NCBI RefSeq assembly: GCF_054482525.1
Contig: NZ_CM137006.1
Length of the DNA stretch: 64,000 nt
Reading direction: 5' to 3' (one strand)
In this document: in pieces, positions 44,001 through 45,681 of the stretch
Layout: each line of letters opens with the position of its first letter
Numbering within the stretch: position 1 is the first letter of the stretch
Position numbers: made by a program

Positions 44001-45681
44001 AACGCCTGCATAAAGCGGGATATCGTCTGGTGATGCTAACCGGGGATAACCCAACCACCGCCAATGCGATCGCCAAAGAAGCAGGGATTGATGAGGTGAT
44101 AGCCGGGGTGCTACCGGACGGTAAAGCCGAAGCGATCAAACGTCTGCAAAGTGAAGGACGTCAGGTGGCAATGGTGGGCGACGGCATTAACGACGCGCCA
44201 GCGCTGGCCCAGGCGGATGTCGGTATTGCGATGGGTGGCGGCAGTGATGTTGCCATTGAAACCGCGGCGATTACCCTGATGCGCCATAGCCTGATGGGTG
44301 TTGCAGATGCGCTCGCGATTTCCCGCGCAACGCTGCGCAATATGAAGCAGAACCTGCTCGGTGCGTTTATCTACAACAGCATTGGTATTCCGGTCGCCGC
44401 CGGTATTTTGTGGCCGTTCACTGGAACACTGCTTAACCCGGTGGTTGCCGGAGCGGCAATGGCGCTCTCGTCGATTACCGTAGTGAGTAACGCCAACCGA
44501 TTGCTGCGGTTTAAACCGAAGGAATAAGTACATCATTACGGATGCACTGCTTTAGGGTGGCGCATCCGTTATAGGGAAATTATTCTACGCGACCTTTTTT
44601 GCACGCATACAAACACATCAAACAAGTCCCCAACTCCATTTGCGATTTGCGCCATCCCTCCCCGCGCGCTAGCATGATATTTCACAAAGGGAGGTCGTAT
44701 GGATCTGTTGTACCGGGTAAAAACGCTTTGGGCCGCGCTGCGCGGTAATCATTACACCTGGCCTGCTATCGATATCTCTCTTCCCGGCAATCGCCATTTT
44801 CATCTGATTGGCAGTATTCATATGGGCAGCCACGATATGGCTCCCCTGCCCACCCGTTTGCTCAAAAAGCTCAAAAACGCCGATGCGCTGATCGTCGAGG
44901 CGGATGTTTCCACCAGCGATACGCCTTTTGCTAATTTGCCTGCCTGCGAGGCGCTGGAAGAGCGCATTAGCGAGGAGCAACTCCAAAACCTGCAGCACAT
45001 TAGCCAGGAGATGGGCATTTCTACCTCACTCTTTTCTACCCAACCGCTGTGGCAAATCGCGATGGTTCTTCAGGCGACGCAGGCACAAAAACTGGGGCTG
45101 CGGGCAGAATACGGTATCGATTACCAGCTATTGCAGGCGGCGAAGCAACAACATAAACCCGTGATTGAACTGGAAGGGGCAGAAAACCAGATTGCCATGT
45201 TGCTCCAGCTCCCTGACAACGGACTGGCGCTGCTGGACGATACGCTGACCCACTGGCACACCAATGCACGGTTGCTGCAACAAATGATGAGCTGGTGGCT
45301 GAATGCGCCGCCGCAAAATAATGAAATAACGCTGCCTAATACGTTCAGTCAATCGCTGTACGATGTGCTGATGCATCAGCGAAATCTCGCCTGGCGGGAC
45401 AAATTATGCGCCATGCCGCCGGGGCGCTATGTGGTCGCAGTCGGTGCACTACACCTGTATGGAGAAGGGAATTTGCCGCAGATGTTGCGCTAAAAAAATG
45501 GCCAATATCGCTATTGGCCCGTCAAAGAGGAATTTCATTTTTTTATTATTATGCCGTCACTTTAAGCGACGGTGTAACTCGATTGTCGCTCAATCTCACC
45601 ATCCTGCCAATACTCTTAGGCAAGATGACTCTTTTTTTTGGACCGCCATCAGGCGTATGCTTGCTTCGTTTTTTTGTTTAA

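What the first reader, a model, noticed from the sequence alone, without database searches (positions are those of the whole stretch)
45492..45575. ChiX sRNA 3' end overlaps the ybaP stop codon
The ChiX terminator U-tract (A-run on the plus strand, 45,492-45,498) overlaps the ybaP TAA stop (45,491-45,493) on the opposite strand, so ybaP and chiX transcripts are convergent and overlapping at their 3' ends. The sRNA itself is known; the overlap is a small point about possible antisense interaction.
Basis: partly seen in the sequence, partly recalled or inferred. Interest (0 to 1): 0.2.

Follow-up and report, generated by a model that had tools for sequence, protein, structure and literature searches.

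The report
ChiX terminator overlaps ybaP stop codon
This is the well-known E. coli small regulatory RNA ChiX, whose last two bases lie on the stop codon of the opposing gene ybaP; the layout is already in the reference annotation and in published 3'-end maps, it is old and widespread in enteric bacteria, and no regulatory role has been shown for it.

Summary
Window 45492-45575 (-) is a full-length Rfam sroB/ChiX match (82.1 bits, cut-off 44). It is 100% identical, promoter included, to E. coli K-12 chiX. ybaP (44699-45493, +) ends in TAA at 45491-45493, and the AA of that codon is the complement of the last two U of the ChiX U-tract.

None of this is new. RefSeq MG1655 annotates the same 2-nt overlap. 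Published Term-seq places the dominant ChiX 3' end on that last U and labels it "antisense ybaP".

What I add:
- The junction is ancient. Of 116 Enterobacterales species with ybaP next to chiX, 97 overlap and 88 have exactly this TAA/U-tract fusion, although YbaP C-terminal tails differ in length and sequence.
- Separated lineages mostly carry inserted repeats, such as ERIC-like elements and heptamer arrays.
- The hairpin has no U-tract on the ybaP strand, so it is not a canonical bidirectional terminator. I could not find a mapped ybaP 3' end.
- Published BCM (bicyclomycin, a Rho inhibitor) data show about 1.5% ChiX readthrough into antisense ybaP, limited by Rho.

Most likely this is ancestral gene packing, with the terminator's T+A-run serving as ybaP's stop. 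Antisense regulation remains untested. Interest is low.

The parts
45492..45575 (-). chiX (sroB/micM/rybC) small RNA gene, 84 nt
   Evidence: Rfam RF00368, 82.1 bits, full length. 100% identical to MG1655 chiX. The Term-seq 3' end at MG1655 507287 corresponds to window 45492.
45492..45498 (-). ChiX terminator U7 tract. The last two U (45493, 45492) are complementary to the AA of the ybaP TAA.
   Evidence: Sequence, terminator scan. The U-run is 6-8 long in 88 species that have the same fusion.
45500..45519 (-). ChiX terminator hairpin GGCCAAUAGCGAUAUUGGCC (8-bp stem, 4-nt loop)
   Evidence: Terminator scan and fold. The stem is kept with compensatory changes across genera: A-U to G-C, and a wholly different hairpin in Rahnella.
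45521..45535 (-). Invariant single-stranded core AAAUUCCUCUUUGAC (ChiX nt 41-55), the pairing region
   Evidence: Upper-case conserved block in the Rfam consensus. Invariant in the IGR alignment. Unpaired in the centroid fold.
45554..45572 (-). ChiX 5' stem-loop (nt 4-22)
   Evidence: Fold and Rfam structure line. The sequence varies between genera but a hairpin is kept.
45582..45610 (-). chiX sigma-70 promoter: TTGGCA, 17-nt spacer, GACAAT. The transcription start at 45575 is 7 nt downstream of the -10 hexamer.
   Evidence: Promoter scan. Both hexamer regions are conserved blocks in 27 genera.
44699..45493 (+). ybaP CDS (TraB/PrgY/GumN family, 264 aa), with stop TAA at 45491-45493
   Evidence: ORF list, Pfam PF01963 E 1e-42, RefSeq annotation.
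45311..45491 (-). Segment antisense to the ybaP 3' coding region that is reached by ChiX terminator readthrough and ended by Rho. Coordinates are transferred from MG1655 507288-507468.
   Evidence: Adams et al. 2021, Supplementary file 2: Rho region 507468 (+), 'antisense ybaP'. Read coverage was 1492 upstream and 22 downstream without BCM, and 2100 and 115 with BCM; Rho score 3.7, p 4e-10. The transfer to window coordinates is my inference; both strains have a 264-aa ybaP.
45697..46176 (+). ybaK CDS (Cys-tRNA(Pro) deacylase). It lies downstream of ybaP in the same direction, so any ybaP readthrough towards it would carry the full antisense of ChiX.
   Evidence: ORF list, Pfam PF04073, annotation.

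Best explanation
This is the known Hfq-dependent sRNA gene chiX, an independent transcription unit with its own sigma-70 promoter and intrinsic terminator. It is packed tail-to-tail against ybaP with no spacer. The T that follows the terminator's U-tract (read on the ybaP strand: T plus the A-run) supplies ybaP's TAA stop.

Shown:
- the identity of the RNA;
- its measured 3' end on the last U;
- the 2-nt overlap;
- the presence of the same fusion across Enterobacteriaceae, Yersiniaceae and Erwiniaceae.

Inferred:
- The arrangement is ancestral gene compaction that persists for three reasons. The U-tract is held by ChiX function (termination and Hfq binding). The stop is held by ybaP. Only in-frame changes in the short, variable YbaP tail are tolerated, because the other two frames run on for tens of codons through antisense chiX.
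- The overlap itself has no dedicated regulatory role.
- ybaP has no terminator of its own, so its polymerases must enter antisense chiX and are probably stopped by Rho and/or by collision with the heavy chiX traffic.
- Conversely, about 1-2% of chiX transcripts read into antisense ybaP and are cut short by Rho.
For: Identity: Rfam 82.1 bits, full length. 100% identity to K-12 chiX plus promoter. ybaK-chiX-ybaP synteny.

3' end: Term-seq 507287 (+) has scores of 445,279, 552,306 and 955,394 in three conditions and is tagged 'primary chiX, antisense ybaP'.

Reference annotation: it already carries the 2-nt overlap.

Age of the junction:
- 120 loci were recovered from one genome per species.
- 116 have ybaP adjacent to chiX; 97 of these overlap and 88 have exactly the TAA/U-tract fusion.
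- YbaP identity to the window protein is only 54-98%.
- 13 of 13 diverse loci carry full-length sroB above the Rfam cut-off.

The stop is anchored while the coding end drifts. Within the fused class, the tail after the conserved NLP motif is 4, 5, 6, 7 or 8 aa long, and 22 different last codons occur.

ChiX does not need the base that forms the T of TAA. In separated species that base is G in 9, A in 6 and C in 4.

Cost of missing the stop: in Phytobacter massiliensis the ORF runs 29 codons through all of chiX.

The fusion is not essential. There are 19 separated species in at least 9 genera, and their long spacers carry inserted ERIC-like elements or GTTGAGC heptamer arrays.

No + strand terminator: the hairpin is followed by CGTCAAAGAGG, the complement of the invariant ChiX core.

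Readthrough and Rho.

Hfq binds the 3' part of sRNA terminators (abstract of PMC9765468). ChiX is a class II Hfq sRNA.
Against: Exact retention of a zero-length spacer in 76% of species across three families is more than one might naively expect for an intergenic junction. Insertions clearly do occur next to it, as the tail-length changes show. Selection for the fusion itself is therefore not excluded.

I have no neutral benchmark from other convergent gene/terminator junctions.

The ybaP 3' end is unmapped in everything I could access, so how ybaP transcription ends is inference only.

RIL-seq lists ybaP-strand reads over antisense ChiX (507215-507289, '-'). These could be a real ybaP 3'UTR RNA on Hfq.
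Confidence: 0.8

Rival explanations
1. Shared 3'-end element. The ChiX terminator hairpin also defines the 3' end of ybaP mRNA. It would not act as a canonical bidirectional intrinsic terminator. Instead, the stem-loop would form right after the ybaP stop codon and position head-on collisions with the dense chiX polymerase traffic, and/or block 3' exonucleases after Rho termination. The zero spacer would then be selected.
For: Deep conservation of the fusion. The hairpin begins 7 nt after the ybaP stop. No other conserved + strand terminator lies before ybaK. Published single-molecule work shows that head-on plus trailing RNAP collisions, with a nascent stem-loop, terminate convergent gene pairs (bioRxiv 10.1101/2022.10.23.513370, abstract). 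chiX is one of the most heavily transcribed loci, judged by Term-seq scores up to 955,394.
Against: There is no U-tract after the hairpin on the + strand in any species, because that sequence is the invariant ChiX core. No ybaP-strand 3' end near the hairpin appears in Term-seq under three conditions. The fusion has been lost repeatedly by repeat insertion. No paper in the searchable library links ybaP and chiX functionally.
Confidence: 0.12
2. Cis-antisense regulation. Either ChiX readthrough RNA (antisense to the last ~180 nt of ybaP) lowers ybaP expression, or the ybaP 3'UTR (perfectly complementary to ChiX) acts as a minor sponge or an RNase III substrate for ChiX.
For: A Rho-limited antisense transcript continues from chiX into ybaP. 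RIL-seq lists '-' strand fragments at 507215-507289 ('ybaP.EST3UTR') joined to ArcZ, Spot 42 and SdsR on Hfq. ChiX is already known to be controlled by RNA sponges, the chbBC intergenic region and ChiZ.
Against: Readthrough is only about 1.5% (22 of 1492 reads).

The ybaP-strand RIL-seq reads amount to about 0.18% of ChiX reads (9,284 against 5,312,155) and have low odds ratios (1.5-2.6). The same data set contains sense/antisense chimeras for Spot 42 at about 0.1% (spf:::spf.AS), which has no annotated antisense gene. A strand artefact from a hugely abundant RNA is therefore at least as likely, and the authors themselves relabel these reads as ChiX.

A rare ybaP mRNA could not titrate one of the most abundant sRNAs.
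Confidence: 0.06

Closest known systems
ChiX (SroB / MicM / RybC), Rfam RF00368, E. coli K-12 b4585
   Same: It is this gene. The sequence is identical to K-12, promoter included. The ybaK-chiX-ybaP synteny is the same, as are the 5' stem-loop, the single-stranded CCUCUUUGAC core, the terminator and the U7 tract. Its known roles are repression of chiP and regulation by the chbBC and ChiZ sponges.
   Different: Nothing differs in the RNA. The only local difference from K-12 is on the other side of ybaP, where this strain lacks ybaQ.
Bidirectional intrinsic terminators, or collision-terminated convergent gene pairs, in E. coli
   Same: There are two convergent transcription units with a single GC-rich palindrome between them. 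The palindrome is flanked by an A-run on one side. The collision model requires a stem-loop between the gene ends.
   Different: A canonical bidirectional terminator has a U-tract on both strands. Here the + strand has CGTCAAAGAGG after the stem. No ybaP 3' end has been mapped at the hairpin.
Cis-encoded 3'-overlapping antisense pairs, e.g. GadY/gadX 3'UTR (recalled from general knowledge, not tested here)
   Same: An sRNA gene lies convergent to, and overlaps, the 3' end of an mRNA gene.
   Different: In those pairs the mature RNAs share tens of complementary nucleotides and the pairing has a shown effect on the mRNA. Here mature ChiX shares 2 nt with the ybaP ORF, the ybaP 3'UTR is unmapped, and ChiX acts in trans on other targets.

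Membership tests
Rfam RF00368 sroB/ChiX | Covariance-model score at or above the gathering threshold over the full model | tested here: met
   82.1 bits against 44, model positions 1-83 of 83, E 2.8e-11; also found in the whole-window scan.
Rfam RF00368 sroB/ChiX | 5' stem-loop, an unpaired conserved UUCCUCUUUGAC core, and a 3' Rho-independent terminator with at least 6 U | tested here: met
   Fold, terminator scan. The core is invariant and the hairpin is maintained with compensatory changes in other genera.
Rfam RF00368 sroB/ChiX | Genomic context between ybaK and ybaP, with its own promoter | tested here: met
   Annotation, review table, promoter-like TTGGCA-17-GACAAT conserved across genera.
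Rfam RF00368 sroB/ChiX | Expressed ~84-nt RNA with its 3' end in the U-tract | tested here: met
   Published Term-seq on a K-12 sequence identical to the window: dominant 3' end at 507287 (+).
Rfam RF00368 sroB/ChiX | Hfq-dependent repression of chiP/dpiBA | not testable with these tools
   Taken from the literature only. Sequence identity to K-12 makes the transfer safe.
Bidirectional intrinsic terminator | A hairpin followed by a U-tract on both strands | tested here: not met
   The - strand has U7. The + strand has CGTCAAAGAGG after the stem, and the scan calls a terminator only on the - strand.
Bidirectional intrinsic terminator | Mapped 3' ends of both convergent transcripts at the shared hairpin | tested here: inconclusive
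   The ChiX end is mapped. No ybaP-strand end is listed in Term-seq.
Cis-antisense sRNA/mRNA pair | Extended complementarity between the two mature transcripts | tested here: inconclusive
   Mature ChiX overlaps the ybaP ORF by 2 nt. A longer overlap would need the unmapped ybaP 3'UTR or the ~1.5% ChiX readthrough. The RIL-seq '-' strand reads are ambiguous.
Cis-antisense sRNA/mRNA pair | An effect of one RNA on the level or translation of the other | not testable with these tools
   No such report exists in the searchable library.

The most novel reading that the evidence does not exclude
The fusion of the ybaP stop codon to the ChiX U-tract is kept in 88 of 116 Enterobacterales species despite turnover of the YbaP C-terminal tail. 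The novel reading is that selection maintains it, because one palindrome serves both genes. It would be the ChiX intrinsic terminator in one direction. In the other, it would be a U-tract-less 3'-end element for ybaP mRNA, assisted by polymerase collision or acting as an exonuclease block. The constitutive chiX traffic would then insulate ybaK from ybaP and set ybaP output.
Probability: 0.12. Interest if true: 0.35.

Novelty: already known. Interest (0 to 1): 0.1.

Why it matters
The finding matters little on its own. ChiX is one of the best-studied enterobacterial sRNAs, and the overlap is already in the K-12 annotation and in published 3'-end tables.

There are two modest practical points:
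- Deletions or tags at the ybaP C-terminus, or chiX deletions that remove the U-tract, will damage the neighbouring gene.
- Strand-ambiguous reads over this locus are mislabelled as 'ybaP 3'UTR' in interactome tables.

The one new fact is comparative: the stop-codon/terminator fusion is ancient and widespread. If it were shown to be selected, it would be a clean natural example of a one-sided terminator doing double duty at a convergent gene pair.

Tried and rejected
- **Canonical bidirectional terminator: rejected.** There is no U-tract on the + strand.
- **RIL-seq 'ybaP.EST3UTR' reads as proof of an antisense-ChiX RNA: not accepted.** They amount to about 0.18% of ChiX reads, their odds ratios are low, comparable artefact-like sense/antisense chimeras exist for Spot 42, and the authors relabel them as ChiX. 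Phrase searches for chiX/ybaP.EST3UTR chimeras failed for technical reasons, because tab-separated fields are not matched.
- **Search for a mapped ybaP 3' end or operon structure: nothing found.**
  - The SMRT-Cappable-seq supplements have no entry.
  - Dar & Sorek 2018 and the Rend-seq annotation paper have no supplements held.
  - The TERMITe supplements have no entry.
  - The dRNA-seq TSS paper is not held.
- **50-nt megablast of the junction against E. coli genomes: no match.** The cause is probably the short query plus the low-complexity filter. This says nothing about the locus itself, since the 1.65-kb query matches 5422 of 5426 genomes.
- **The + strand terminator-like site at 45650-45663, upstream of ybaK, as the ybaP terminator: not supported.** The stem is weak (5 bp), and the T-run is not conserved in other genera. 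That block looks more like promoter or 5'UTR sequence.
- **Locus L060 (a 'Lindowbacteria' MAG): set aside as a chance match of the 19-base pattern.** It has no hairpin or U-tract. L025 is cut at the locus edge.

Full report

Yes. The + strand reads ...ttgcgc TAA AAAAA t GGCCAATATCGCTATTGGCC cgtcaaagaggaatttc....
- TAA occupies 45491-45493.
- The A7 run occupies 45492-45498.
- The palindrome occupies 45500-45519.

The ORF 44699..45493 (+) encodes 264 aa. It is a TraB/PrgY/GumN protein (Pfam PF01963, E 1e-42) and is annotated ybaP in RefSeq.

Rfam finds sroB (RF00368, the family of ChiX) at exactly 45492-45575 on the - strand. The score is 82.1 bits against a gathering score of 44, with E 2.8e-11 and a full-length, untruncated match (repeated in the whole-window scan).

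The terminator scan calls the hairpin plus U-tract on the - strand only. It also finds a TTGGCA-17-GACAAT promoter at 45610..45582, placed correctly for a start at 45575. Alone, the RNA folds into a 5' stem-loop, an open middle and the terminator.

**2. What is it?**

The window is E. coli. It is 100% identical to strain PCN033 over 1.65 kb, and the locus is present in 5422 of 5426 complete genomes. The chiX gene and its promoter are base-for-base identical to K-12 MG1655, so K-12 experiments transfer directly.

MG1655 RefSeq annotates chiX at 507204..507287 (+) and ybaP at 507286..508080 (-).

The 3' end is measured. In Term-seq (Adams et al. 2021, PMC7815308, Supplementary file 1), position 507287 (+) is a very strong 3' end in all three conditions, with scores of 445,279, 552,306 and 955,394. 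The authors' own table classifies it as "primary: chiX; antisense: ybaP". The overlap is therefore already in both the reference annotation and the published data.

**3. Surroundings and the other strand**

ybaP and ybaK (45697-46176) both lie on the + strand, with chiX between them on the - strand. After the ybaP stop, the + strand carries the complement of the terminator hairpin. It then carries CGTCAAAGAGGAATTTCA, the complement of the invariant ChiX core, and this is not a U-tract.

Hence the element is not a canonical bidirectional terminator, and ybaP has no intrinsic terminator of its own. The only + strand terminator-like site before ybaK (45650-45663) has a 5-bp stem and a T-run that is not conserved in other genera.

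The Term-seq table contains no ybaP-strand 3' end. I could not find one in any other accessible data set.

In the chiX direction, published ±BCM (bicyclomycin, a Rho inhibitor) data list a Rho termination region at 507468 (+), "antisense ybaP".
- Without BCM, coverage was 1492 reads upstream and 22 downstream.
- With BCM, it was 2100 upstream and 115 downstream.
- The Rho score was 3.7 and p was 4e-10.

So roughly 1.5% of transcription passes the ChiX terminator and is stopped by Rho within about 180 nt of antisense ybaP (window about 45311).

**4. Comparative evidence (new here)**

One locus is a chance hit. Thirteen diverse loci all carry full-length sroB above the Rfam cut-off.

In 116 species ybaP lies next to chiX.

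| State of the junction | Species | Where |
|---|---|---|
| TAA shares its AA with the last two U of ChiX | 88 | see list below |
| TGA overlapping by 1 nt | 4 | Pantoea |
| Stop inside the terminator loop (19 nt of ChiX's 3' end inside the ORF) | 4 | the Kosakonia/Phytobacter group |
| ORF runs 29 codons through the whole of chiX | 1 | Phytobacter massiliensis |
| Separated by 3-230 nt | 19 | at least 9 genera |

The 88 fused species include Escherichia, Salmonella, Citrobacter, Klebsiella and Enterobacter. They also include Yersinia, Serratia, Rahnella, Pantoea dispersa, Mixta and Winslowiella. That covers three families.

Within the fused class:
- YbaP is only 54-98% identical to the window protein.
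- The tail after the conserved NLP motif is 4 to 8 residues long.
- 22 different last codons occur.

So the coding end has turned over while the stop stayed welded to the terminator.

In separated species the base after the U-run is G in 9, A in 6 and C in 4. ChiX therefore does not itself require the A that forms the T of TAA.

The long spacers are insertions of repeats. Buttiauxella and Rahnella inusitata carry ERIC-like elements, and Pantoea and Erwinia carry GTTGAGC heptamer arrays. The fused state is thus ancestral, and the separated state is derived and evidently tolerated.

The terminator stem is kept with compensatory changes.

**5. How it most likely works**

Shown: chiX is an autonomous, very highly expressed sRNA gene whose intrinsic terminator ends the RNA on the last U.

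From the literature:
- Hfq binds the 3' part of sRNA terminators (abstract of PMC9765468).
- ChiX is a class II Hfq sRNA.
- ChiX represses chiP and is itself sponged by the chbBC intergenic region and by ChiZ.

Inferred: the overlap is ancestral compaction. The U-tract is frozen by ChiX function and the stop by ybaP. The other two frames across the A-run stay open for tens of codons, so only in-frame changes of the short YbaP tail survive. This makes the terminator's TAAAAAAA a stable stop, or "backstop". Nonsense mutations or repeat insertions occasionally separate the two genes.

ybaP polymerases must run into antisense chiX. They are probably ended by Rho and/or by head-on collision with chiX traffic. 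A published mechanism for convergent pairs needs a nascent stem-loop.

I put 0.8 on [quoted passage not shown].

**6. Rivals**

(a) The hairpin is a selected, shared 3'-end element for ybaP (0.12).
- For: the deep conservation, and the lack of any other terminator.
- Against: no + strand U-tract, no mapped ybaP end, and repeated loss of the fusion.

(b) Cis-antisense regulation by ChiX readthrough or by a ybaP 3'UTR sponge (0.06).
- RIL-seq tables do list '-' strand fragments at 507215-507289, named ybaP.EST3UTR, joined to ArcZ, Spot 42 and SdsR.
- However, these amount to about 0.18% of ChiX reads and have low odds ratios.
- The same data set holds artefact-like sense/antisense chimeras for Spot 42 at about 0.1%.
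- The authors relabel these reads as ChiX.

**7. Comparison with known systems, and novelty**

This is a member of the ChiX/SroB family; indeed it is the K-12 gene. It fails the defining test of a bidirectional intrinsic terminator. It cannot be called a cis-antisense pair on present evidence.

No paper in the searchable library discusses a ybaP-chiX relationship beyond naming the flanking genes.

Novelty: already known. Interest: low (0.1). The only increment is the comparative observation that the stop-codon/U-tract fusion is ancient and widespread.

Noticed in passing
window 44528-44698 (between copA 42023-44527 and ybaP 44699-45493): This strain, like PCN033, has only 171 bp between copA and ybaP. 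K-12 and many other E. coli carry ybaQ (a HigA-family antitoxin-like regulator) there. In those genomes a query spanning the junction matches in two pieces that lie 860-1060 bp apart.
   Followed up: partly
window 56222-56345 (-), 51256-51333 (-), 59968-60032 (-): Other Rfam hits above the gathering score in the window are STnc490 Hfq-binding RNA (146 bits), naRNA4/CssrE (74 bits) and the dnaX frameshift element (97 bits).
   Followed up: no
L046, L064, L122 (Buttiauxella) and L040 (Rahnella inusitata), between the ybaP stop and the chiX terminator: A 110-140 nt ERIC-like palindromic repeat (…GTGAATCCCCGGGAGCTTAC…GTAAGTGACTGGGGTGAACG…) is inserted exactly at the ybaP/chiX junction. It separates the stop codon from the U-tract.
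   Followed up: partly
L100, L075, L067 (Pantoea, Erwinia and a record labelled Enterobacter cancerogenus M004), spacer between ybaP and chiX: The spacer holds tandem heptamer arrays, (GTTGAGC[A/C])n, with up to about 14 copies. The 'E. cancerogenus M004' locus looks Erwinia/Pantoea-like in both the YbaP tail and the spacer, so the record may be mislabelled.
   Followed up: no
L026 (Phytobacter massiliensis JC163), oriented coordinates 6838-6928: The ybaP reading frame misses the stops used by its relatives and continues for 29 codons across the entire chiX gene on the opposite strand. This is either a real ORF/sRNA full overlap or a 1-nt assembly error.
   Followed up: partly
L041, L048, L066, L094 (Kosakonia/Phytobacter group): ybaP reads through the A-run (…Q-K-N-G-Q) and stops at a TAA located in the loop of the ChiX terminator hairpin. 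The loop sequence differs from other genera accordingly (AATAAG or AATAAT instead of ATATCGCTAT).
   Followed up: partly
window 45611-45665 (+), between the chiX promoter and ybaK: Two blocks are conserved across genera: GCAAGAT-N-TACTATTTTTT and GGCGTATGCT. The first could be an A-rich UP-like element for the chiX promoter when read on the - strand. The second could be a -10 element for a ybaK promoter. Neither was tested.
   Followed up: no
MG1655 507215-507289 '-' strand (window about 45490-45564, +), RIL-seq tables of PMC10954441: 55 interaction rows are labelled ybaP.EST3UTR on the strand opposite to ChiX, and the authors relabel them as ChiX. Interactome tables at this locus therefore need strand checking.
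   Followed up: partly
window 45492-45498 with 45538-45544 (ChiX nt 78-84 with nt 32-38): In the minimum-free-energy fold, the internal A7 run of ChiX pairs with its own 3' U7 tail, enclosing the core and the terminator. Both runs are expected Hfq contact sites, so this may be a prediction artefact or a closed form that competes with Hfq binding.
   Followed up: no
window 46177-46212, between the ybaK stop (46176) and the ushA stop (46213): This is a second convergent junction next door. Term-seq places the ushA 3' end at MG1655 506602, one base from the end of the ybaK ORF, and labels it 'primary ushA, antisense ybaK'. Tail-to-tail packing is therefore the local norm.
   Followed up: no
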